64,000 nucleotides of DNA from the IMG/VR virus record IMGVR_UViG_3300015177_000008, positions 47,519 through 111,518 of that record, one strand, 5' to 3'. Every line of letters starts with the position of its first letter. Position 1 is the first letter of the stretch. The stretch is from a virus. Taxonomy: Duplodnaviria; Heunggongvirae; Uroviricota; Caudoviricetes. The position numbers were made by a program, and so were the translations under genes. This document shows positions 3,042-46,265 of this stretch, one piece after another. The notes beneath the pieces are model-generated. The model saw nothing but the letters and a program-made list of their open reading frames with translations. It did not search any database and was not told the DNA's origin.

Positions 3042-3418
3042 TTCCCCTCCAAACAAACGTATGCTACAGATTAACTACCTAAAAATTGAGTTTAACACTA
3101 ACTCATGTAATTAATACTAATGCAAGAAAATATTCACTAATATTTTTATCTTTTAGTTATAAACTAAATTTACATGTGGCTGTTTTGCAAAATGTAGACT
3201 TCCTATATTTTTTATGAAATGATTAGGAAAATAAATTTATTTTATAGCCTTAACACTATGGTCAATACATTTCTTAACACCCAATGCCATCACGAATGAA
3301 CTAAGGAAAAGCGGAATGGCCTTTGACGTTAAAATGCTCTAACTGGAGGTTGTTCATGTGTTTTTCTCTTATCGTTTAGTTACTACATTCTTACACAAAC
3401 CAAGTAAGTGTTTACCTA

Positions 3419-5105
3419 TCATTTAACGCGTTTGAAAACGTATACGCTGACTGTGATCCCTGTGTCTTCAAACTCGTTGGTAAACGACTTCCCTCTGGCA
3501 TAAACGTAATTATCCATCGTCATCCAGTCCAGTATTGGCGCAGTGCCCGGCAATACTGCTACAAGACGCCCGCCGACTTTCAGATGCCCCAGCGCAGCCA
3601 GCGTGTGCTCTCTATGACGACCAAGCGAGTACGGCGGGTTCATAACGATTTTGTCGAACTGATAACCTGCGTTGTCCTCAGACCACTTTATGAAGTCGCA
3701 GCAAATCGTGTTCGTATACCCTTTTCCACGCAGGATATCAGCAAAGAGAGGTGCGATTTCTATGCAGGTAACATCTTCCAGATCGGCGTTAATATAGGCC
3801 AGAAGATCCCCACGTCCGGCTTGAGGCTCCAACAGCTTCTCACCAGGCTTCAATTCAGTGGCTCTTGCAACGTACTCAGCAATCAAGCGTGGGGTAGGGT
3901 AGAACTGGTGTGATTTTGTATCCGGTATTAAACCGGTAGCCACAATCGTATTTAGCGTATGGCCGATGTCATACGGGAACTGCCAGTGCTTTTTCTCCTG
4001 CACGCCGCCAATGAAGCTCAGTGTGCGCTCAAGCTCTTCCACCTGCGACTTCTGGAGAGCTGAATCAGAGAAGTACCATACTCCTTTGTCTTTGCTCAAT
4101 CGCCCGTCACGAAGCGCAGTGCGAACCGGGACGGAGATCGTCTTCTGGATTAGCCCGAACTGCTTTGGTGCCCGTGTTTTTTGGCGCTCTGCGGCATGGC
4201 GCGGGGATTGCTGCAGGCATACTGTAAGCCAGCACCTCATTCAACTTCCAGGCCACGTCAGGATGTATTTCAAAGTGAACGTTGCCGTTCTTGAACATCT
4301 TCACGCGCATCAGATTTCCATCGACGTTCATCCAGTCACCGGTCTGGCAGTCGTTTGCCCGATACGCAGCTGATAGCACCTCAGCAGTGCGGTTGATGGT
4401 AATAAATTCTTTGTGCGCGAAGAAATGAAGCAAAACACGCAGATCGTCGATATAGTCCTCTTTGCGATAGTTCACACTAACGCTGTCCCGCCAGAAATCA
4501 GAAATGCAGTCAGCGATTATCAGACGCTCGCTGAAACCGTTCGTCTTATTTGTCTTGTGCGCAGGACTCAGCGCCTTAAACAAGCCATACACGCGCTCGG
4601 AGAGATATTTGTGCCTGTCATTCAGCAAATTAAGCATCGTTGGTATGACCGTTTCTGCTTTGAACTCCGGTACACCAACGAACTCTTTAACCTTCATCTG
4701 ATAGCCGGTTCTGTCAGTTTTGATGACTTCCTGCTTGCCCTCGATAAATTGCTCACGCCACTCGTCGCGACGGGAAGCTGGCATGATCAGCAAAACGTTA
4801 GTCATATCCGTGACCTTCCTCCAGTACTCGGCCCAAATATTCTGTTTCACCCATTCCAGATCGACTTTATCCAACCAACCTCGATTTAAACGCGAGCGAT
4901 CTTCATCTGGTCGATGGTTTAGTCTCAGCAGGCGATTAATCATGTTGTGGCGTTCGTCGCCATAAACGAAGTCGTGTACCTGATACATGAAGTCGATCTC
5001 TTTCTCGCACTCGGCCACGATTTCGTGGATGACATTCATTTCCTGACGATAGTCGATAGCCGTGTTTGAGCTGGCATCGTCGATGATGGAAAGGGCTGTA
5101 TTCAT
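3419..5105 (-). pseudogene. SAM-dependent methyltransferase-like gene (NPPY motif, DUF4942-like), disrupted by a frameshift
   Basis: Two overlapping minus-strand ORFs in different frames (4107..5105 and 3419..4240). The downstream frame carries EPQAGRGDLL and IVMNPPYS motifs; the tail of the first and head of the second look like out-of-frame sequence. Confidence 0.5.
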
Positions 5106-20833: not shown

Positions 20834-20851
20834 GATAAGCACTTACCTATC
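20834..20851. promoter_or_regulatory. Class-2 AT-rich palindrome
   Basis: gataagcacttacctatc upstream of nrdA. Confidence 0.35.
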
Positions 20852-26496: not shown

Positions 26497-26605
26497 TCAT
26501 GTATGCTGTCAGCGGTAATTGATAGTCTGTCAGCGGTTCACCGTATGCTGCCAACTGTTTTTGGTATTCTGTCAGCGGCAAATCAAGTATGCTGTCAGCG
26601 GTTGA
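26497..26605. repeat. Iterons, upstream set (about 5 copies of TATGCTGTCAGCGGT and variants)
   Basis: Direct repeats tatgctgtcagcggt, gtctgtcagcggt, tattctgtcagcggc with irregular spacing. Confidence 0.7.
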
Positions 26606-26622
26606 ATGACAAAGGTGTCCAC

Positions 26623-27717
26623 ATGTCCACAAAAAATAAAAAAGGTAAAAATAACAAAGAAGTAGAAGATAATCTCGACAACTTTGAAGAAGGTTCCCTT
26701 GAATTGTACACAGGGGAACTTGTCCCTAATAGCAACAATACAGTCCAACCAATTGCGTTGATGCGGCTGGGATTGTTCGTGCCCACGCTCAAGGGGACAA
26801 AATACAGCAAGCGTAACAAGCCAAATGAGATCGATGCTTCAAAGGAGCTTGTTCAGCTCGAAGTAGCCCGTTCTGAAGGCTATTCCGATATCAAGATAAC
26901 CGGTCCTCGTCTCGACATGGATCATGATTTCAAAACGTGGGTGGGCGTTGTGCGTTCGCTGGCAGAATACGGCGAACCTAACGGTCGTGTCGAGTTAAGC
27001 ATCACGAAATTTGCGAAGTTTTGTGGCTATCCATCGTCACAGATCCGCAAAACACTCCGCGACCGGCTTACAAACAGTCTTTTGAAGATCATGCGTACAA
27101 CTCTGTCTTTCCAGAGAACATATGAAGAAAAGAACGTCGACGGCTCTAACAAGATCTCGCTTCTGATGGTGCACCTCATCAATAGCGTGGACTACAACGA
27201 GCAGAAAGATACGGTGGTGTTCTATGCAGAACCGAAGCTGGCCGAACTATATCGCTTTGACCATAAGGTTCTTTTGCAGTTAAAGGTTATCAATAAGCTA
27301 CCACGCAAAGAAACAGCACAGGCTCTGTACACCTTCATCGAAAGTCTTCCAACCAAGCCTGCGCCGGTGTCGCTTGCTCGATTGCGTGCGCGACTCAATT
27401 TGAGTAGCAGGAATGTCAGCTCGCAGAATCAGACTATACGCAACGGCTTAAAAGCTCTCCAAGATTTGGGCTATCTCGAATACAGCGAGATTAAGCGAGG
27501 GCGGTCGATCTATATCCAGATTCACAGCCGTAATCCAAAACTTAAAGTCGCACCGCCAAAACCTGAAGACATCGAACCCAAAAAAACAGATGAGAAAGCC
27601 GGGGAAATTGATGCTAAACAGAACATTATCAACAAGATAACTGAGCTTTCGCAGAATTTGACGCCTGAAAATATCAAGATGATTGAGATCCTTTCCAATA
27701 GTCTCAAACTGCTTTGA
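26623..27717 (+). CDS. repA: Iteron-type plasmid replication initiator (RepFIB-like)
   Basis: ATG at 26623 after AAGGTG; motifs TVQPIALMRLGLFVPTLK, ITGPRLDMDHDFKTWVG, LYTFIESLP, SLARLRARLNL match RepFIB-type RepA as I recall it; flanked by iterons. Track ORF starts upstream inside the iterons. Confidence 0.8.
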   Translation: MSTKNKKGKNNKEVEDNLDNFEEGSLELYTGELVPNSNNTVQPIALMRLGLFVPTLKGTKYSKRNKPNEIDASKELVQLEVARSEGYSDIKITGPRLDMDHDFKTWVGVVRSLAEYGEPNGRVELSITKFAKFCGYPSSQIRKTLRDRLTNSLLKIMRTTLSFQRTYEEKNVDGSNKISLLMVHLINSVDYNEQKDTVVFYAEPKLAELYRFDHKVLLQLKVINKLPRKETAQALYTFIESLPTKPAPVSLARLRARLNLSSRNVSSQNQTIRNGLKALQDLGYLEYSEIKRGRSIYIQIHSRNPKLKVAPPKPEDIEPKKTDEKAGEIDAKQNIINKITELSQNLTPENIKMIEILSNSLKLL

Positions 27718-27718
27718 T

Positions 27719-28250
27719 ATGCTGTCAGCGGTGAAATGTATGCTATCAGCGGCTATTTTTCTGAAAAGTATGCTGTGAACGGTTAAAGATATGCTACCAG
27801 CGGTATAGTGAGATGAACGTATGCTGTGAGCGGTAAATCATCTATCACCACTCAATGCTCTGTCATACCTCCCCAGTGGTTACTAACCTCGAAGAGTGCA
27901 TTCCATATAGGTTTGCGCTCACTAACATTCTATTGCTATTGCGCTGATTGCTTGTAGTGAAAGGCATTTATTGCCTGCTGCTCCCTGATAGAACGTATGC
28001 TGTCAGCGGTGTTTTATTGAGGAATTTTTGTTTGGATATGCTATCAGCGGTAATTAATGGTATATGTCAGACCTTCGTATGCTGCCAGCGGTAATTTTGT
28101 TCTGGTTATACCCATACCGGTACACATTATTCATGCAATGTCTTAAGTATGCTGTCAGCGGTAAAAAATCGAGTAAAGTATGCTGTGAGCGGTGAGATAG
28201 ACTCTCGATATGCTATCAGCGGTAGTTGATTGTGTATGCTGTCAGCGGTG
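27719..28250. repeat. Iterons, downstream set (at least 11 copies)
   Basis: tatgctgtcagcggt and variants (tatgctatcagcgg, tatgctgtgagcggt, tatgctgccagcggt) spaced about 20-35 bp apart, with a 160-bp gap. Confidence 0.75.
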
Positions 28251-28296: not shown

Positions 28297-28509
28297 TTAG
28301 TGTATTTTCTTTAACAGACCCCAAAGTGTTCCGGCTTTTGTAGTCAGTTTTCCTGTTTCTGGATCGTACATACGCCATTCACGCCGCTGGTGGACGATAT
28401 ACCCATCTTCACGTTCCAGACGCTCAAGAATGCCAGGTTGCTTGAAACCCTTAGCACGCCAGTAGCCGCTTGTTTTCTCGATTTCCAGACCTGCCAGTGT
28501 TAATGCCAT
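28297..28509 (-). CDS. Hypothetical protein (70 aa)
   Basis: ORF; start overlaps the upstream stop. Confidence 0.4.
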   Translation of the reverse strand: MALTLAGLEIEKTSGYWRAKGFKQPGILERLEREDGYIVHQRREWRMYDPETGKLTTKAGTLWGLLKKIH

Positions 28510-28844
28510 TATTCAACCTCCTTGCAGTCATCGAAAAGGTAGCTTTGCTGAGAAGCGTGAACGCCATAGAAGCCCTTGTATTTGTTGTATACGAAGTGGT
28601 CTTCTCCGACGCCGGTTAATTTGCCATTACGGTTTGTGAGATATGGGGATGACAACACTCGATCGTCACGCACAACATAGAACTGGTCGCCGCTGTCTAC
28701 GACCATCGCTCCATATGGTGCTTTTATGACGTCGGTAAGAGCGCCATTCTTAACGTCGGCTACAGACATTTCACACTGATAAACAGTGGTGTCGGCCACA
28801 ACGATCGAAGAAAGGAACAACAGCGCGAATGGGATGGCCTTCAT
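28509..28844 (-). CDS. Hypothetical secreted protein
   Basis: N-terminal signal-peptide-like MKAIPFALLFLSSIVVA. Confidence 0.45.
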   Translation of the reverse strand: MKAIPFALLFLSSIVVADTTVYQCEMSVADVKNGALTDVIKAPYGAMVVDSGDQFYVVRDDRVLSSPYLTNRNGKLTGVGEDHFVYNKYKGFYGVHASQQSYLFDDCKEVE

Positions 28845-29020
28845 GCTGCCACCTCTTTGATTACATCAAATGCTGAATTAAATACGAGCACGATAGCCAA
28901 AGCGTTTATGACTACGTCGTTCACCGGGGAAAAGACTTTACGAATGACACCGGTGAAAATGCAGTCGATGACAAAAGCTATTGAAACGATGAGTAACAAG
29001 TATTCAATAAAAATCTTCAT
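28841..29020 (-). CDS. Small membrane protein (59 aa)
   Basis: ATGA overlap with the downstream gene; two hydrophobic segments; below track cut-off. Confidence 0.3.
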   Translation of the reverse strand: MKIFIEYLLLIVSIAFVIDCIFTGVIRKVFSPVNDVVINALAIVLVFNSAFDVIKEVAA

Positions 29021-29390: not shown

Positions 29391-29816
29391 TCAATCTTCT
29401 TGTTTAGGGAAAAACTGTTCAATAACTCTGTCAACGGCTGTGTCTATATGGAGTAGATGCCACACAACCATATCTTTGCTTCCCATGCCTTGTGTGAATA
29501 TCACGTCATACTTACGCCATGCGCAGTGGAACCAATATGCTGAGTCATCAATTGGTAAATCCTCTCCCGCCTCTTTGAAGTATTTCAGCAGCATTGCCTG
29601 CTCTGCCGTTGGCGTTGGGCCTATTTCCTGAGCGTACATACGGATGAATCGCTGCCAGTCTGTCTCGTCGGGAGTTGGATCTGGTGGATTCATTTCGGCG
29701 ATAGCTTTTCGCAGCTGATGCGCCCAATCAGGTTCAGGAAAGCCTTTTGCTACTTCATCATCAATAACATCCAGAGCCACGTTTGCGGCATCGTAGAGTT
29801 TCTTAATAGCTGTCAT
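29391..29816 (-). CDS. Hypothetical protein
   Basis: 141 aa; class-1 palindrome and a terminator upstream. Confidence 0.45.
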   Translation of the reverse strand: MTAIKKLYDAANVALDVIDDEVAKGFPEPDWAHQLRKAIAEMNPPDPTPDETDWQRFIRMYAQEIGPTPTAEQAMLLKYFKEAGEDLPIDDSAYWFHCAWRKYDVIFTQGMGSKDMVVWHLLHIDTAVDRVIEQFFPKQED

Positions 29817-29864: not shown

Positions 29865-29890
29865 ATAAAAAAGGCGTCCAACTGGACGCC
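29865..29890 (-). terminator. Rho-independent terminator
   Basis: Minus-strand GGCGTCCAGTTGGACGCC followed by TTTTTTAT, downstream of the SPFH gene. Confidence 0.6.
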
Positions 29891-29907
29891 TGAACTTTTA
29901 AGGGGAG

Positions 29908-30738
29908 TTATTTCACTGTAATGAAAGGAGTGTTAGCCCCTTGAGTCATGTACTGCGGTAACTGGCCATTCCATTTATTGATGGCTTCCAGCTCCATAAC
30001 GTTCGGGTTTTGACGCAGAGCTTCACCGCGCAGACGAATGGCGTCTGCTTCTGCTTGCGCACGAGCACGGATAGCATCAGCTTCACCATTAGCCTGTTCA
30101 CGCAGCATATTCGCCTCAGCTTTACGTTGTTCAACTTCCTGCTGACGTTGCAGAGTACGCTGGTTAGCCGTTACTTTGGCGTTAATAGATTCAATGACGG
30201 TTTTTGGGTAATCAGGCTTTCCAACCCATGACAAGCTCAGTACCTCAATACCAACCGGAGACATCTCTTTCTGAATATCTTTCAGTGCGTTGTCCAGCAA
30301 TTGTGCCTTACCACCGTCGATAAATGAGTCAGTGGTCATACGGCTGGCCAAACGGTTTAGAGAGTCGGCAATTTTCTGACGCAGATCTGATTCGGTGATA
30401 TCGTCTACGCCTTTGCGATAGGTCTGGAACACCGTCGTTACCTTGTCACGATTAACCAGATACGCAACGCCAATTTTGTGACCAATAGCAGTACCGTCAC
30501 TCATCTGGAATGTGAACGGCTCGTCGTAGGTCTTCATTTGTTTGAAGGTCGGGAATACGTAAAGTTCGGTGTTAAGACCTGTCCATTGGCGACCAACGCC
30601 AACCACTTCACCAATCCCTTTGTCTTCACCTAATTTGTTTACTTTGATGCCAACGTATCCAGACTCCACGCGATCGCAGCCAGTAAGACCCATTGTGCAA
30701 ATAGCCGCCAGAGCAACTGCAAGTAAACCTTTCTTCAT
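29908..30738 (-). CDS. SPFH/band-7 (stomatin-prohibitin-like) lipoprotein
   Basis: Lipobox LTGC after a signal peptide; SPFH-like core and Ala/Glu/Arg-rich coiled-coil C-terminus. Confidence 0.6.
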   Translation of the reverse strand: MKKGLLAVALAAICTMGLTGCDRVESGYVGIKVNKLGEDKGIGEVVGVGRQWTGLNTELYVFPTFKQMKTYDEPFTFQMSDGTAIGHKIGVAYLVNRDKVTTVFQTYRKGVDDITESDLRQKIADSLNRLASRMTTDSFIDGGKAQLLDNALKDIQKEMSPVGIEVLSLSWVGKPDYPKTVIESINAKVTANQRTLQRQQEVEQRKAEANMLREQANGEADAIRARAQAEADAIRLRGEALRQNPNVMELEAINKWNGQLPQYMTQGANTPFITVK

Positions 30739-30741
30739 TAC

Positions 30742-30942
30742 TTATTTCCCCTTTGCTTTGATTAATGAGTTGATAAACTTACGACCAGCAATAAGACCGA
30801 TTACAGGAGCACCAAAACCAACGATAACTCCAAACATGACGGCTAAATCACTCTTGGTAGAAATCAGCGACGGAACCAGTAATCCGTAGATGAGAGCCAC
30901 TGAAAGGCCTGTGGCTACTGCCAATAGATAGATTTTGATCAT
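30742..30942 (-). CDS. Small two-TM membrane protein
   Basis: 66 aa hydrophobic ORF immediately upstream of the SPFH gene in the same operon. Confidence 0.4.
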   Translation of the reverse strand: MIKIYLLAVATGLSVALIYGLLVPSLISTKSDLAVMFGVIVGFGAPVIGLIAGRKFINSLIKAKGK

Positions 30943-30973
30943 GTGTTTTCCTATGTGGTTGTTATGTGAAAAT

Positions 30974-30990
30974 GATAAGTAAGTACTTAT
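30974..30990. promoter_or_regulatory. Class-2 AT-rich palindrome
   Basis: gataagtaagtacttat upstream of the 30742..30942 start. Confidence 0.35.
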
Positions 30991-31034
30991 ATATTTTCAA
31001 GAAATAAAAAAGGCGTCCTGTGGACGCCTTGTGT

Positions 31035-33374
31035 TTACTCTTCTACTGACTCGGTGGGATTGTCTTTTGATCTCCGGTCGTCGATTGCCTGTAAAGCCGC
31101 AATGATTTCAGCTAGTGGCTTCTCCCGATACATCTCGACGATCTGTGATTTGGTGTATTTCTTGTCACCAATTTCTACTCGACCGCTGGCGTTCTTTGGC
31201 AGGTATCCTTCTTCCAGCATGTACTCGACGAGCGACTCGATAACGTCGAGGCCACGAGTAGGATCGAAGTAGAATTTCCAGGTGCATTTGCCATACGGTG
31301 GTGCAACTTTGTTTTTGATGCACTCTGCGCCTACGTCCTGACCGATCTTCTCTTTCCCATCCTTCATCACCGATGCACCGAGACGGATGCGCACAGAAGC
31401 GTAAAACTTCGGTGAATCGCCGCCTGGAGACGTAGTAGGGTCGCCAAACATTACACCGATTTTTGTGCGAACCTGATTCAAGAAGATGATGCAGGCGTTG
31501 TATTTGCGTGCCCACAAAGCCAGAGTGGGGAAGTTCGCACTCGTCGCACGAGCCAGCGCCGTATTGTCGTTCATGTTTAGCTGATCTTTGTCTTTGGCAG
31601 TGCCTTCAGCCATCTTTTCGAACTTCTCGGCTTTGGAGTTCGGAACCATAGACGCAAGTGAGTCAGCCACGATACAGATAGGTGCTGATTCAGGAATAAG
31701 CTCTTCATCACGTACCAATTTAAGAATTGTGCCGATCAACTCTACAGAGTCTTCGAAGGTATCAGGCTGCTTGTATACCCACTGACCGTCATCCTCATCT
31801 GCATTCAAACCATTGGCTACAGCCAGGCCAACGTCAAAACTGTTTTCATGATCGAGGAATACCGCCAGACCATCTTGTTTTTGAGCGGAGATCATCGCTG
31901 CTGTTGCAAGGAATGTGTTGTGGCTGATAATCCCGTTAGACCAGAAAGAGTGTGTTTCCGGCATCGCTACGTCGAACGTTGGTGCTTCACCTTCCTCAAT
32001 AGCCACGACTTCGTCGTAGAACAAGTTAGAGCCAATTACCGCTGCCAGTTGTGCAAACAGATGCTCGTTAAAACGATTCTTTCTGCCAATGAAGGAGACA
32101 TAGATTTCTCGCAGTTTGTCTATTCCGACACGATCGCCGCGGCCAATAACGTGGTCTACCAGAGCGTAGTCTTCACGGGTGGTCTTGGTGAGCGACTCGT
32201 AGAGTGATTTCACTAAGCCGCTGATGTGCGGAACATAGCCTGAGTAAGTGCGGTCAAAACCAATGTCCCGTTTGGTTGCCACTGATAAACGTGCCGGAGA
32301 TTCGAAACCAATCGTTGACAGAAAAAGGTCGTAATTAGAGCCACTGAATGACAGCCGGTAATATGTATTTTCATAACCCGCGACGTGTTTTTCAGAGATA
32401 GTTGACGTAATCCCCAGATTCAGGAGCATGAGGCGAATTTGCTGTAGCAGCAGCCCACTCGCGCTCACAACCTCAATGCAGCGACCATCATTGACGTGGC
32501 ATTCCAGCTCAAAGTAGCCGCGAAGGAATGCAATTTGAGCCTCGCTATTGGCGCGACGCACACTCAACGGAACCTGCTTGCCAGCAGCTTTCTCATACTC
32601 CAGACCATATTCTTTAAAAAGCAGCGAACGCACCTCTTTGCTAAACAGCACATGGTCTTCCGAGCCGTTATGTTTTCTCGTAACTGGCATCTTGTCTGAT
32701 ACCAGCGAAATGAGGCGGTAGTACTCATCCTTGATGAAAGGATCTGTGTTAGAAAAATTCACTGAATTTTCAGAGGCCACGTATCCGTCAGCAATTAAAT
32801 AGCCCATCAGTTTTGCGATATTGGCATCCAGGTGCTGATCGCCGAATTGATGTGTGCCAACCATTGAAGGAATCGTGTCGCCTACACTGATTTTTTCAGC
32901 ATGTCGCCAGACGACATTACCTAAGTCGTCAACCACACGGATTGGGTGACGGAACGTAGCCTCGATATAACCGCCTGATGCCAGCTTAATACGCTTGAAT
33001 TTGCGACGGTTGTTCCATGTCAGGTGTGAGGTCTTCTCTATCACGCCATTTTCATTGATGAGTCCAACGTTATGCTCTACATCGCGAGTAGTGCATGTCG
33101 CTTTGTACCCTTCAATCTCAAACAACTCTTTCACTGTTACCATTCCACGCTCCGTCAGCAGCATGGTGTCTGCGGTAACACATTTCCCCGCACTTGGAGG
33201 ACCGAATACTTCGACGATACGACCACATGGGAAGCCGCCATCGTAACGACCAGAAATAGCTTTGTTTAACGGTGGAAAGCCTGTATCAATCCAATGAGTT
33301 ACTTTCTGAATTTCGTCGTTGCTACCGATTTTCTTTTTCAGAGCAAGTGCCAGTGCGGATTTTCCTTTTGCCAT
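31035..33374 (-). CDS. recA: RecA-family recombinase interrupted by an intein
   Basis: Exteins GRIVEVFGPPSAGK...TFLATAAM and FLNQVRTKIGVMFGDPTTSPGGDSPKFYASVRIRLGA resemble RecA; a 422-aa insertion splits the Walker A motif. Confidence 0.8.
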   Translation of the reverse strand: MAKGKSALALALKKKIGSNDEIQKVTHWIDTGFPPLNKAISGRYDGGFPCGRIVEVFGPPSAGKCVTADTMLLTERGMVTVKELFEIEGYKATCTTRDVEHNVGLINENGVIEKTSHLTWNNRRKFKRIKLASGGYIEATFRHPIRVVDDLGNVVWRHAEKISVGDTIPSMVGTHQFGDQHLDANIAKLMGYLIADGYVASENSVNFSNTDPFIKDEYYRLISLVSDKMPVTRKHNGSEDHVLFSKEVRSLLFKEYGLEYEKAAGKQVPLSVRRANSEAQIAFLRGYFELECHVNDGRCIEVVSASGLLLQQIRLMLLNLGITSTISEKHVAGYENTYYRLSFSGSNYDLFLSTIGFESPARLSVATKRDIGFDRTYSGYVPHISGLVKSLYESLTKTTREDYALVDHVIGRGDRVGIDKLREIYVSFIGRKNRFNEHLFAQLAAVIGSNLFYDEVVAIEEGEAPTFDVAMPETHSFWSNGIISHNTFLATAAMISAQKQDGLAVFLDHENSFDVGLAVANGLNADEDDGQWVYKQPDTFEDSVELIGTILKLVRDEELIPESAPICIVADSLASMVPNSKAEKFEKMAEGTAKDKDQLNMNDNTALARATSANFPTLALWARKYNACIIFLNQVRTKIGVMFGDPTTSPGGDSPKFYASVRIRLGASVMKDGKEKIGQDVGAECIKNKVAPPYGKCTWKFYFDPTRGLDVIESLVEYMLEEGYLPKNASGRVEIGDKKYTKSQIVEMYREKPLAEIIAALQAIDDRRSKDNPTESVEE
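31917..33182 (-). mobile_element. Intein with LAGLIDADG homing-endonuclease domain inside recA
   Basis: Starts with Cys directly after GPPSAGK, ends ...SHN followed by Thr; LAGLIDADG-type blocks LMGYLIADGYV and LRGYFELECHV. Confidence 0.7.
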
Positions 33375-35759: not shown

Positions 35760-35788
35760 GATAGATCAGTACTTACTTATTATCTATC
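35760..35788. promoter_or_regulatory. Class-2 AT-rich palindrome
   Basis: gatagatcagtacttacttattatctatc upstream of the SSB-like gene. Confidence 0.35.
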
Positions 35789-43172: not shown

Positions 43173-43190
43173 CGTAAGTGCTTACTTATC
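43173..43190. promoter_or_regulatory. Class-2 AT-rich palindrome
   Basis: cgtaagtgcttacttatc upstream of the CobS-like gene. Confidence 0.35.
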
Positions 43191-45833: not shown

Positions 45834-45847
45834 GGTAAGCACTTACC
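45834..45847. promoter_or_regulatory. Class-2-type palindrome at the regulator's transcription start region
   Basis: ggtaagcacttacc directly downstream of the -10 (autoregulatory position). Confidence 0.4.
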
Positions 45848-45878: not shown

Positions 45879-46265
45879 ATGTCTGACAACAAGATTGAAT
45901 TTATAGAAAGTCGCTATGCTGCTTTTATCGCAGGGCTGATTGAATCCTCACCTATGAGTCAGGCCCAAATAGCCAGACTTATTGGTTATAAAAATGCCAA
46001 CAACCTTTCTTTAATTAAAAGTGGCAAAATTCCTTTGCCTATCGATAAGGTTCGTCCGCTGGCGCTGGCACTGGGTATTGAGCCAAGTCGTCTTATGATG
46101 ATGGTGCTGGAAGAACGCCAACCCGAACTTGCAGCATTTTTATACAAAGAAGGCACTGCTCCTCTTAACGAGGACGAAAAACAGGTTCTTGCTGCATATA
46201 ACGAGCGATTCGGTAAAGAGAAAGGCGCATCACAAAAGGTTGTTGAGGCCATAAAGTCTCTATGA
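45879..46265 (+). CDS. XRE-family helix-turn-helix transcriptional regulator (candidate repressor)
   Basis: HTH MSQAQIARLIGYKNANNLSLIKSG; plus-strand gene convergent with the recombinase. Confidence 0.65.
   Translation: MSDNKIEFIESRYAAFIAGLIESSPMSQAQIARLIGYKNANNLSLIKSGKIPLPIDKVRPLALALGIEPSRLMMMVLEERQPELAAFLYKEGTAPLNEDEKQVLAAYNERFGKEKGASQKVVEAIKSL

What the first reader, a model, noticed from the sequence alone, without database searches (positions are those of the whole stretch)
29908..30942. SPFH/band-7 lipoprotein with a small two-TM partner, in a terminator-bounded two-gene operon
Membrane scaffold proteins of this fold (HflK/HflC-type) modulate FtsH, which controls lysogeny decisions in lambdoid phages. 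An element-encoded SPFH pair could tune host proteolysis or act in superinfection exclusion. The operon has its own class-2 palindrome upstream and terminator downstream.
Basis: partly seen in the sequence, partly recalled or inferred. Interest (0 to 1): 0.5.

Follow-up and report, generated by a model that had tools for sequence, protein, structure and literature searches.

The report
Phage SPFH lipoprotein with two-helix partner
A phage-plasmid of E. coli carries a self-contained two-gene unit, a small two-helix membrane protein plus a lipid-anchored SPFH (prohibitin/HflK-like) scaffold protein; the same pair, side by side or fused, turns up in very many unrelated phages (including coliphage N4 gp19-gp20), and nobody has yet shown what it does.

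Summary
On the minus strand, a 66-aa two-TM protein (30942..30742) and a 276-aa SPFH lipoprotein (30738..29908) form one unit. It has its own sigma-70-like promoter and lies between two strong terminators that share one stem.

The window is an SSU5-like E. coli phage-plasmid. The pair is not peculiar to it. The same cassette sits in P2-like P88, Stx phage phiP27 (partner unannotated there), N4-like phages (gp19-gp20) and PVP-SE1. In 73 of 80 diverse viral contigs the partner lies upstream of, downstream of, or fused to the SPFH gene. Every distant relative whose context I examined was in a phage.

By profile search the family is closest to prohibitin and HflK/C, but it is not a member of either. 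There is one SPFH gene, a lipid anchor instead of a TM helix, and no NfeD partner.

Predicted topology: the SPFH domain sits on the periplasmic face of the inner membrane, and the partner is an N-in/C-in hairpin.

Public RNA-seq of the 94.5%-identical Cyrano element shows the operon silent in an LB-grown lysogen and induced inside macrophages, independently of its neighbours.

An FtsH link is plausible but untested. A role specific to lysogeny is unlikely, because many carriers are virulent phages.

Verdict: a real and widespread variant of a known kind, with unknown function.

The parts
31010..31030 (-). Intrinsic terminator of the upstream RecA-like (intein-containing) gene.
   Evidence: 9-bp stem, dG -16.9 kcal/mol, z = -6.5, followed by a U-tract; the same stem as the downstream terminator; conserved in SSU5 and Cyrano.
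30972..31000 (-). Sigma-70-like promoter, TTGAAA-17 nt-TATCAT.
   Evidence: 10 of 12 matches; the 29-nt block is identical in SSU5, whose genes are only about 78% identical; in Cyrano the operon is transcribed independently of its neighbours.
30979..30990 (.). Operator-like palindrome GTAAGTACTTAT (consensus GTAAG-NN-CTTAC) in the promoter spacer.
   Evidence: 7-8 sites in the window against 1.3-1.4 expected, with 0 of 100 shuffles reaching that number. One perfect copy (45835) lies in the divergent region next to the putative HTH repressor gene. Binding is inferred, not shown.
30742..30942 (-). Gene for the 66-aa two-TM hairpin partner. Its motif is IYGLLVPSLISTKSD at the periplasmic end of TM1, followed by a basic C-terminal tail. 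Predicted topology is N-in/C-in.
   Evidence: phrog_1130; present next to the SPFH gene in 80 of 83 close loci; present in 73 of 80 diverse loci; homologous to the N-terminal hairpin of natural fusion proteins; positive-inside count.
30747..30753 (-). Shine-Dalgarno sequence AAGGGGA for the SPFH gene, inside the end of the partner gene. The partner's stop codon TAA is 3 nt before the SPFH ATG.
   Evidence: Read; tight or overlapping junctions are the rule in relatives.
29908..30738 (-). Gene for the 276-aa SPFH/Band-7 lipoprotein. It comprises a signal peptide (residues 1-20), the lipobox LTGC (Cys21 at 30678..30676), Asp at +2, the SPFH domain (24-209), a long helix (about 179-243) and the conserved C-terminal motif NKWNGxLP.
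   Evidence: AF2 model, pLDDT 75.6. Foldseek matches to full-length HflK/C, prohibitin, erlin, stomatin and flotillin chains..
29872..29891 (-). Intrinsic terminator of the operon.
   Evidence: dG -15.7 kcal/mol, z = -4.8; conserved in SSU5 and Cyrano; the Cyrano gene downstream (CYRAN_58) stays low when the operon is induced.

Best explanation
This is a two-component membrane scaffold that belongs to phages, not a host-type HflK/HflC pair.

Shown or directly predicted from sequence:
- The two genes form one autonomous, translationally coupled transcription unit.
- The larger product is exported and lipid-modified at Cys21. Its +2 Asp should keep it on the periplasmic face of the inner membrane.
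- It has the complete architecture of the cage-forming SPFH proteins: SPFH domain, long helix and C-terminal cap segment.
- The smaller product is an N-in/C-in helical hairpin in the same membrane. A conserved acidic loop (P-x-x-I/V-S-x-x-S/D) faces the periplasm, where the lipid-anchored N-terminus of the SPFH protein sits.
- Across phages the two are adjacent in either order, or fused into one polypeptide that still keeps the lipobox cysteine. They therefore work together, probably about 1:1.

Inferred:
- The SPFH protein oligomerises into a ring or dome on the outer face of the inner membrane, and the hairpins lie in or under it, fencing off a patch of membrane.
- The SPFH protein is strongly conserved across unrelated temperate and virulent phages of Gram-negative, Bacteroidota and Gram-positive hosts. 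The target is therefore probably a conserved host inner-membrane component or a property of the membrane, not another phage. FtsH-type membrane proteolysis is the leading candidate (about 25-30%). General stabilisation of the membrane during infection is the next.
- In this element the promoter carries an operator-like palindrome that is also found at the putative repressor gene, so the unit is probably held off in the plasmid-prophage state and switched on early after derepression or under stress.
For: Identity and boundaries.

The same cassette in unrelated phages:
- P88 gp11-gp12.
- phiP27 L05 plus an unannotated 62-aa ORF overlapping it by ATGA.
- N4-like Jura gp19-gp20, annotated as homologues of N4 gp19/gp20.
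- PVP-SE1 gp115/gp117.
- SSU5 and Cyrano.

Linkage of the two genes:
- The partner is adjacent in 80 of 83 close loci.
- In 80 diverse IMG/VR loci it is upstream in 49, downstream in 21, fused in 2, elsewhere in 1 and undetected in 7.
- Junctions mostly overlap.
- About 18 of the 150 best cluster representatives, and 26 proteins found, are natural fusions of hairpin, basic linker, signal peptide with lipobox, and SPFH. The Cys is invariant, as are P, S and G in the hairpin. The AF2 model of a fusion shows three helices followed by the SPFH domain (pLDDT 81.7).

Phage specificity: all six distant relatives whose contexts I read lie in phage or prophage DNA. There are 415 phage records with a match.

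Fold and nearest families.

Topology:
- Partner K+R counts are 2.1 (N-terminus), 0.4 (loop) and 2.8 (C-terminus) over 59 distinct partners.
- The residues after the lipobox Cys are Asp-Arg in 94 of 116 enterobacterial homologues.
- In 15 of the 116 the Cys is replaced by Tyr, Trp or Phe. That should leave an uncleaved signal anchor, which can only sit in the inner membrane.
- The Asp +2 retention rule is established knowledge for E. coli.

Expression (PMC9928086 S1 Table; values are log2(FPKM+5)):
- CYRAN_56 and CYRAN_57 read 2.32/2.32 and 4.30/3.02 in LB.
- They read 7.61/7.70 and 7.25/7.42 in macrophages at 6 h.
- The flanking genes stay near 4.

Operator-like palindrome.
Against: - No oligomer, lipidation, localisation or partner contact was measured. 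The cage is inferred from fold similarity alone, on a monomer model of moderate confidence (pLDDT 75.6).
- The +2 rule is specific to Enterobacterales. Many family members from other hosts have Ser or Thr at +2. A possibly related Pasteurella prophage protein was reported in outer-membrane vesicles (PMC9872710), so an outer-membrane location is not excluded for all members.
- Some phages have no recognisable partner next to the gene: LUZ24-like Ab22, phiEa104 and 7 of the 80 contigs.
- Nothing links the protein to FtsH beyond family resemblance and orientation.
- The other genes preceded by the palindrome (RNR, gp32-like SSB) are not co-induced in macrophages, so the shared-operator idea is only partly consistent with the expression data.
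Confidence: 0.55

Rival explanations
1. Superinfection exclusion or anti-phage defence. The pair sits in the inner membrane and blocks DNA entry by, or aborts infection by, other phages. It would act either from the resident phage-plasmid or early in infection, in the manner of T4 Imm/Sp.
For: The location (envelope-facing lipoprotein plus small inner-membrane protein) is that of many exclusion proteins (own knowledge). The unit is autonomous and bounded by terminators. The family occurs in virulent phages as an early or middle gene, which fits early exclusion. In PhiSH19 an SPFH gene lies next to an annotated superinfection exclusion gene (PMC3220722), though this is only anecdotal.
Against: No PADLOC model matches either protein. 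The operon is at the detection floor in the LB-grown Cyrano lysogen, so there is no constitutive protection. The SPFH protein is unusually conserved for an arms-race protein: 85% mean column identity among enterobacterial phages, and recognisable in phages of Gram-positive and Bacteroidota hosts. That points to a conserved host target rather than variable phage parts.
Confidence: 0.15
2. One reading: an element-encoded HflK/C analogue that tunes FtsH specifically to bias the lysis-lysogeny decision or the stability of the element.
For: The nearest characterised families (prohibitin, HflK/C) both gate FtsH-type proteases (the function is own knowledge). The orientation is the same as HflK/C. 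In phiP27 and in a Rhodopseudomonas prophage the gene lies in the int-proximal arm, on the same strand as the cI-like repressor gene.
Against: The family is common in phages of groups generally held to be strictly virulent, which make no lysogeny decision. The HflK/HflC models score far below their cut-offs, and there is only one SPFH gene. No cII/cIII-like partner genes are linked: clustering of neighbouring ORFs found no third conserved gene.
Confidence: 0.1
3. Lysogenic-conversion or envelope-stress factor. The operon is switched on in the carried state under host-imposed stress and helps the bacterium, for example through membrane integrity inside macrophages or effects on virulence.
For: In Cyrano the partner rises roughly 40-fold and the SPFH gene roughly 18-fold in macrophages at 6 h, while neighbouring replication and recombination genes stay flat and the authors report no lytic induction there (PMC9928086). 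Deleting a prophage-borne 'HflK/C-like' protein attenuated Pasteurella multocida (PMC9872710). Host SPFH proteins contribute to stress tolerance (titles and abstracts listed).
Against: This cannot be the ancestral role, since virulent phages carry the pair. The macrophage induction coincides with a rise in the gene divergent from the putative repressor (CYRAN_46, 4.3 to 10.8) and in the integrase. It may simply reflect partial derepression. The homology of PM0222 to this family was not tested here. There are only two replicates in one strain.
Confidence: 0.12
4. Lysis-timing device. The two-TM protein is a holin or antiholin-like protein, and the SPFH cage controls when the membrane is permeabilised.
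For: The partner has the size and shape of a class II holin: about 66 aa, two TM segments and a basic C-terminus. N4, which carries the pair, is known for greatly delayed lysis (own knowledge).
Against: In Cyrano the holin, endolysin and spanin genes lie about 30 kb away (CYRAN_22-25). The pair sits among early, replication and recombination genes in every context read. Pfam holin models give only noise (E = 0.044). The partner can be fused to the exported lipoprotein, which would be odd for a holin.
Confidence: 0.08

Closest known systems
HflK/HflC (E. coli FtsH modulator complex)
   Same: It has the full cage-forming SPFH architecture (Foldseek top hits 7vhq_G and 7vhq_E) and detectable sequence relatedness. 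The SPFH domain is predicted on the periplasmic face of the inner membrane.
   Different: There is one SPFH gene, not two paralogues. The anchor is a lipid (lipobox), not an N-terminal TM helix, although some variants have lost the Cys and would be TM-anchored. Scores are far below the TIGR01932/TIGR01933 cut-offs. There is an extra two-TM partner. The gene is phage-borne. FtsH binding is unknown.
Prohibitin (PHB1/PHB2) family
   Same: Prohibitin gives the best profile match among solved structures (PHB1, E = 6.7e-11 over nearly the full length). NCBI names some distant members 'prohibitin family protein'. Prohibitin also faces the outer side of an energy-transducing membrane (own knowledge).
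   Different: Identity is about 14-17%. This is a bacterial-virus protein, lipidated, apparently a homo-oligomer, with a dedicated hairpin partner.
SPFH-NfeD operons (e.g. QmcA-YbbJ, PH1511-PH1510)
   Same: A two-gene operon pairs an SPFH protein with a small membrane protein, with occasional fusions. In the solved QmcA-YbbJ structure (8z5g, listed) the partner's TM helices sit with the cage (own knowledge).
   Different: The partner has no NfeD/OB domain (no Pfam hit) and is only a 2-TM hairpin. QmcA faces the cytoplasm (own knowledge), whereas this protein is predicted to be periplasmic. QmcA is the weakest of the solved SPFH profile matches (1.5e-4).
PHROG 200 ('lipoprotein') and PHROG 1130 ('membrane protein'), including coliphage N4 gp20/gp19 and PVP-SE1 gp117/gp115
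   Same: Direct membership: E = 2e-107 and 2e-25. The same gene pair is found in these phages.
   Different: None in kind. These families have no assigned function, and I found no description of the two as a linked or fused module.

Membership tests
SPFH / Band 7 superfamily (Pfam PF01145) | Match to the Band_7 model above the gathering score | tested here: met
   104.5 bits against a cut-off of 23.6, E = 8.7e-30, residues 24-209.
SPFH / Band 7 superfamily | Cage-former architecture: SPFH domain, long coiled-coil helix and C-terminal segment | tested here: met
   strands 28-95, helices, strand 164-176, and a helix spanning 179-243; full-length alignments to HflK/C, PHB, erlin, stomatin and flotillin chains, all at probability 1.00.
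SPFH / Band 7 superfamily | Assembly into a large ring or dome on a membrane | not testable with these tools
   Only monomer prediction was available.
HflK/HflC FtsH modulators | Scores above the equivalog cut-offs (TIGR01932 hflC, TIGR01933 hflK) | tested here: not met
   30.2 bits against 134.4, and 18.7 bits against 159.4.
HflK/HflC FtsH modulators | Two paralogous SPFH subunits encoded together | tested here: not met
   one SPFH gene. The partner is a 66-aa hairpin with no SPFH domain.
HflK/HflC FtsH modulators | N-terminal TM anchor with the SPFH domain in the periplasm | tested here: inconclusive
   A periplasmic orientation is predicted (signal peptide and lipobox). The anchor is a lipid, not a helix, but 15 of 116 homologues have lost the Cys and would keep a TM anchor.
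HflK/HflC FtsH modulators | Physical association with FtsH and an effect on its substrates | not testable with these tools
   Needs pull-down, cryo-EM or a multimer prediction.
SPFH-NfeD operon partners | The partner carries an NfeD/OB-fold domain | tested here: not met
   five partner variants give no Pfam match of significance, even at E up to 10.
Bacterial lipoprotein (Lgt/LspA substrate) | Signal peptide ending in the lipobox [LVI][ASTVI][GAS]C | tested here: met
   L-T-G-C with Cys21. The Cys is conserved in 100 of 116 close homologues and invariant in 26 fusion proteins. Lipidation itself was not measured.
Inner-membrane-retained lipoprotein (E. coli +2 rule) | Asp at position +2 after the lipidated Cys | tested here: met
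   Asp-Arg in 94 of 116. The rule is established knowledge for Enterobacterales. Localisation was not measured.
Flotillin (FloT/FloA) | Flot/flotillin models above their cut-offs | tested here: not met
   PF15975 at 19.9 bits against 27. FloT at 16 bits against 700.
Known anti-phage defence systems (PADLOC-DB v2) | Match of either protein to any defence-system model | tested here: not met
   no hits at E up to 0.1 for either protein or for four neighbouring proteins.
Class II holins | Small 2-TM protein encoded within a lysis cassette | tested here: not met
   In Cyrano the lysis genes lie about 30 kb away. Holin models give only noise.
PHROG 200 / PHROG 1130 | Significant profile match | tested here: met
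   2.1e-107 (profile positions 80-359 of 379) and 2.1e-25 (positions 1-65 of 66).

The most novel reading that the evidence does not exclude
The hairpin-plus-SPFH-lipoprotein pair is a general phage device, found from N4 to crAss-like and Lak phages. It builds a periplasm-facing cage on the host's cytoplasmic membrane in order to take over a universal membrane function. The most attractive version is that it corrals or shields FtsH-type quality-control proteolysis, or shields the membrane against depolarising abortive-infection effectors, so that the infected cell stays energised. The fused forms would be natural polyproteins cut by signal peptidase II into a 1:1 pair.
Probability: 0.2. Interest if true: 0.75.

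Novelty: new variant of a known kind. Interest (0 to 1): 0.5.

Why it matters
What SPFH proteins actually do in bacteria is a long-standing puzzle. Here is a compact two-gene version that phages of many hosts have kept, moved between genomes and sometimes fused. It is present in genetically tractable phages (N4, P2-like, SSU5-like) and in about 7% of complete E. coli genomes.

That makes it a convenient handle for three questions: what an SPFH cage encloses, whether phages manipulate FtsH or membrane integrity through one, and what the gene contributes when a phage-plasmid is carried in a pathogen (it is induced in macrophages in strain LF82).

On the practical side, the partner gene is unannotated in some records (phiP27). 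The pair should be annotated as one module.

Tried and rejected
- **Defence-system membership.** PADLOC gave no hits.
- **NfeD or any Pfam family for the partner.** Nothing matched.
- **Programmed readthrough.** In the window the two ORFs are in frame, separated only by TAA GTA, which suggested readthrough or a recent fission. I rejected this: only 8 of 49 separate upstream partners are in frame, fewer than the one-third expected by chance, and most junctions overlap out of frame.
- **A third conserved component.** Clustering all ORFs within 2.5 kb in 80 diverse loci found only the SPFH gene, the partner (upstream and downstream forms) and antisense artefacts.
- **Co-regulation with DNA-metabolism genes.** The shared palindrome suggested it, but the Cyrano RNA-seq shows RNR, SSB and polymerase genes flat while the operon rises. 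I keep the operator only as a hypothesis tied to the putative repressor.
- **Literature.** Eight searches found no functional study of phage SPFH proteins or of N4 gp19/gp20. One 2026 paper says that why a phage carries such a gene 'remains unclear' (PMC13239085).
- **Sub-family assignment by fold.** Foldseek does not discriminate between HflK/C, prohibitin and erlin. Only the sequence profile ranks them.
- **Predicting the pair as a complex.** This was not possible, because only single chains could be modelled. A natural fusion was modelled instead, and only its secondary structure and confidence could be read.
Full report
**1. What is there**

The window is an SSU5-like phage-plasmid of E. 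coli. The 1.25-kb region is 98-99.8% identical to about 180 E. coli plasmids of roughly 105-115 kb. It is also close to phages CMS-2020a, PhiR41_1 and Cyrano, and 78.6% identical to Salmonella phage SSU5.

Two co-oriented ORFs lie on the minus strand:
- a 66-aa protein at 30942..30742;
- a 276-aa protein at 30738..29908.

The larger protein is an SPFH/Band-7 protein: Pfam E = 8.7e-30 and phrog_200 'lipoprotein' E = 2e-107. Its N-terminus is a textbook lipoprotein signal, MKK-hydrophobic-LTG|C.

The smaller protein has two hydrophobic segments and a basic tail. It matches phrog_1130 'membrane protein' but no Pfam family.

The partner's TAA stop is 3 nt from the SPFH ATG, and an AAGGGGA ribosome-binding site lies inside the end of the partner gene.

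Strong minus-strand terminators flank the unit at 31030..31010 and 29891..29872. Their z-scores against shuffles are -6.5 and -4.8. They share a stem found nowhere else in the window.

The upstream hairpin terminates the preceding RecA-like gene.

A TTGAAA-17-TATCAT promoter lies at 31000..30972. Its 29-nt block is identical in SSU5, although the genes themselves are only about 78% identical.

The only correction concerns the nature of the upstream palindrome.

**2. The pair is a mobile phage module**

The same two genes occur in unrelated temperate phages:
- P2-like P88, as gp11 'membrane protein' plus gp12 'lipoprotein' in the early operon.
- Stx phage phiP27, as L05 preceded by an unannotated 62-aa two-TM ORF that overlaps it by ATGA, near int-xis.

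The pair also occurs in phages of groups generally held to be virulent:
- N4-like Jura gp19-gp20, annotated as homologues of N4 gp19 and gp20 and bounded by annotated terminators.
- PVP-SE1 gp115 and gp117, separated by one inserted small gene.

A tblastn search with the SPFH protein finds 415 phage records. These include LUZ24-like Pseudomonas podophages, FelixO1-like Erwinia phages, phiCbK, crAss-like phages, a Lak megaphage and Bacillus phage B4.

An exhaustive profile-free search finds 181 cluster representatives at E <= 1e-30, all aligning end to end at about 280 aa. Of the best 150, 112 have a lipobox.

I read the contexts of six distant relatives, and all lie in phage or prophage DNA. 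They comprise:
- a Rhodopseudomonas prophage (next to the integrase);
- a Cohaesibacter prophage;
- a Eubacteriaceae phage region with a terminase gene;
- three large metagenomic contigs with phage-type gene content.

**3. The partner belongs to the system**

The partner ORF abuts the SPFH gene in 80 of 83 loci closely related to the window. It is far more divergent than the SPFH protein but keeps the motif (L/V)-P-x-(L/M)-(I/V)-S-x-x-(S/D).

In 80 diverse IMG/VR loci I combined a hairpin HMM with ORF clustering. The partner is upstream in 49, downstream in 21, fused in 2, elsewhere in 1 and undetected in 7. Junctions usually overlap.

About 18 of the 150 best representatives, plus 26 proteins from a further search, are natural fusions. 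Their order is hairpin, basic linker, signal peptide with lipobox, then SPFH. In these fusions the lipobox Cys is invariant, as are a Pro, a Ser and a Gly in the hairpin.

An AF2 model of the Rhodopseudomonas fusion gives three helices followed by the SPFH domain (pLDDT 81.7).

Gene-order permutation together with repeated fusion is classic evidence that two proteins act together. Retention of the lipobox suggests that the fusions are cut into two proteins by signal peptidase II. That step is an inference.

Clustering of neighbouring ORFs found no third conserved gene.

**4. Topology**

Over 59 distinct partners, Lys+Arg average 2.1 in the N-terminus, 0.4 in the loop and 2.8 in the C-terminus, and the loop is net acidic. 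The hairpin is therefore N-in/C-in, with its conserved loop in the periplasm.

The fusions fit this. Their linker is basic (cytoplasmic), and the signal peptide then carries the SPFH domain outwards.

The residues after the lipobox Cys are Asp-Arg in 94 of 116 enterobacterial homologues. Asp at +2 is the E. coli inner-membrane retention signal (established knowledge).

In 15 of the 116 the Cys is replaced by Tyr, Trp or Phe. These include an abundant lineage of E. coli SSU5-like elements. Such proteins should keep an uncleaved signal anchor, which can only be in the inner membrane.

The most economical reading is an SPFH domain on the periplasmic face of the inner membrane, the orientation of HflK/C. 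One caveat applies: the +2 rule does not extend to other phyla, where Ser or Thr at +2 is common.

**5. Which SPFH family**

The AF2 model (pLDDT 75.6) has the full cage-former architecture. It matches full-length HflC/HflK, prohibitin, erlin, stomatin and flotillin chains about equally well.

A profile of 66 family members ranks prohibitin-1 first (6.7e-11), followed by HflK (3.6e-7), HflC (7e-6) and QmcA (1.5e-4).

The protein fails the HflC/HflK equivalog models by a wide margin. It lacks a second SPFH subunit and has no NfeD partner.

It is therefore a distinct, phage-associated SPFH family on the prohibitin/HflKC side of the superfamily, with its own kind of partner.

**6. Expression**

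[quoted passage not shown] Its published transcriptomes are in PMC9928086, S1 Table, with values given as log2(FPKM+5) and a floor of 2.32.

| Gene | LB overnight | Macrophages, 6 h |
|---|---|---|
| Partner (CYRAN_56) | 2.32 / 2.32 | 7.61 / 7.70 |
| SPFH (CYRAN_57) | 4.30 / 3.02 | 7.25 / 7.42 |
| RecA (upstream neighbour) | 3.56 / 3.12 | 4.06 / 4.05 |
| CYRAN_58 (downstream neighbour) | 2.69 / 2.32 | 4.20 / 3.94 |

The operon is not among the 13 Cyrano genes the authors call morons in LB.

Three things follow:
- The unit is transcribed on its own, so its promoter and both terminators work.
- It is off in an ordinary lysogen culture.
- It can be switched on without the replication genes.

In the same condition the gene divergent from the putative repressor (CYRAN_46) rises from about 4.3 to 10.8, and the integrase rises too.

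In the window, the promoter spacer holds a palindrome, GTAAGTACTTAT. The consensus GTAAG-NN-CTTAC has 8 sites against 1.3 expected by chance. One perfect copy lies between the putative HTH repressor gene (45879..46265) and its divergent neighbour. Others precede the RNR, gp32-like SSB and CobS-like genes.

I read this as a candidate operator of the element's repressor, which would place the operon among the first genes to respond to derepression. The reading is only partly consistent with the RNA-seq, because the RNR and SSB genes stay low.

**7. How it most likely works**

Shown or directly predicted:
- an autonomous, coupled two-gene unit;
- an exported lipoprotein with a complete SPFH cage architecture;
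- an N-in/C-in hairpin partner that is genetically inseparable from it across phages.

Inferred: the SPFH protein forms a ring or dome on the outer face of the inner membrane, with the hairpins in or under it, fencing off a membrane patch.

The protein is highly conserved (85% mean column identity among enterobacterial phages). It is present in phages of very different hosts and lifestyles. The target is therefore more likely a conserved host membrane component or a property of the membrane than another phage.

FtsH is the best single candidate, by analogy with the two nearest families and because of the shared orientation. Nothing here tests that, and I give it 25-30%.

The rivals are set out with their evidence in the Rival explanations section:
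- early superinfection exclusion;
- a lysogeny-specific FtsH role;
- a stress or virulence benefit to the carrier;
- control of lysis timing.

**8. Novelty and verdict**

The genes are annotated in databases ('SPFH domain-containing protein', 'lipoprotein', 'membrane protein'), and about 7% of complete E. coli genomes carry the SPFH gene (373 of 5,426). The element itself is ordinary.

Several points appear in none of the papers I could search:
- the hairpin and the SPFH lipoprotein form one conserved, permutable and sometimes fused module;
- the module is phage-specific and includes N4 gp19-gp20;
- it has a predicted periplasmic-face topology.

The function remains unknown.

I rate it a new variant of a known kind, of moderate interest. 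It is a tractable route into SPFH biology and into phage manipulation of the host membrane, but it is not a surprise in kind.

Noticed in passing
window 31035-33374 (minus strand): The RecA-like recombinase gene just upstream is interrupted by an intein carrying a LAGLIDADG homing endonuclease, giving a 779-aa product (Pfam RecA, Intein_splicing and LAGLIDADG_3). The SSU5 homologue is only 1077 nt and has no intein. Some plasmid records annotate the gene only as 'LAGLIDADG family homing endonuclease' or 'hint domain-containing protein'.
   Followed up: partly
window 20835-20846, 30979-30990, 35766-35775, 43174-43185, 45835-45846: An operator-like palindrome, GTAAG-NN-CTTAC, recurs in intergenic regions: 8 sites with at most 1 mismatch against 1.3 expected. 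It lies before the RNR large-subunit, gp32-like SSB and CobS-like genes, inside the SPFH operon promoter, and in the divergent region between the putative HTH repressor gene (45879..46265) and its neighbour. It is a candidate repressor regulon of SSU5-like phage-plasmids.
   Followed up: partly
window 26497-26602 and 27713-28249: About 15 iterons (GTATGCTGTCAGCGGT) flank and overlap the start of the Rep3-type repA gene (26503..27717). This is the plasmid replication origin of the element.
   Followed up: partly
Homologues P0002-P0012, P0076, P0077, P0082, P0083 (window residue Cys21, 30678..30676): The lipidated cysteine has been lost repeatedly by single-base changes (Cys to Tyr, Trp or Phe). 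One case is an abundant lineage of E. coli SSU5-like elements; P0005 alone was seen on 175 contigs. These variants should be signal-anchored instead of lipid-anchored.
   Followed up: partly
L001 (phiP27, NC_003356) 3304-3492, minus strand: An unannotated 62-aa two-TM ORF overlaps the start of L05 (the SPFH lipoprotein) by ATGA. It is the partner gene, and it is missing from the record's annotation. L05 itself is mislabelled 'putative serine protease' in the original record.
   Followed up: yes
window 28297-29020 (minus strand); Cyrano CYRAN_60-62: The small genes downstream encode a 59-aa hydrophobic protein, a 111-aa protein with a signal-peptide-like N-terminus, and a 70-aa 'Cra'-like protein. 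Their Cyrano homologues are also strongly induced in macrophages at 6 h (from about 2.3-3.8 to 8.3-9.0 in log2 units), as is the SPFH operon.
   Followed up: no
L091 (metagenomic phage contig) 4639-7265: In one large phage contig that has an SPFH gene without a partner, a MotA/ExbB-like protein and a trypsin-PDZ (HtrA-like) protease are encoded 2-4 kb upstream on the same strand. This is a single case of possible envelope-related neighbours.
   Followed up: no
window 29391-29816 (minus strand): The gene immediately after the operon's terminator encodes a DUF7238 protein (phrog_1451, function unknown). One database protein (P0018, 303 aa) joins SPFH and DUF7238 domains, probably through a frameshift or an assembly artefact.
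   Followed up: no
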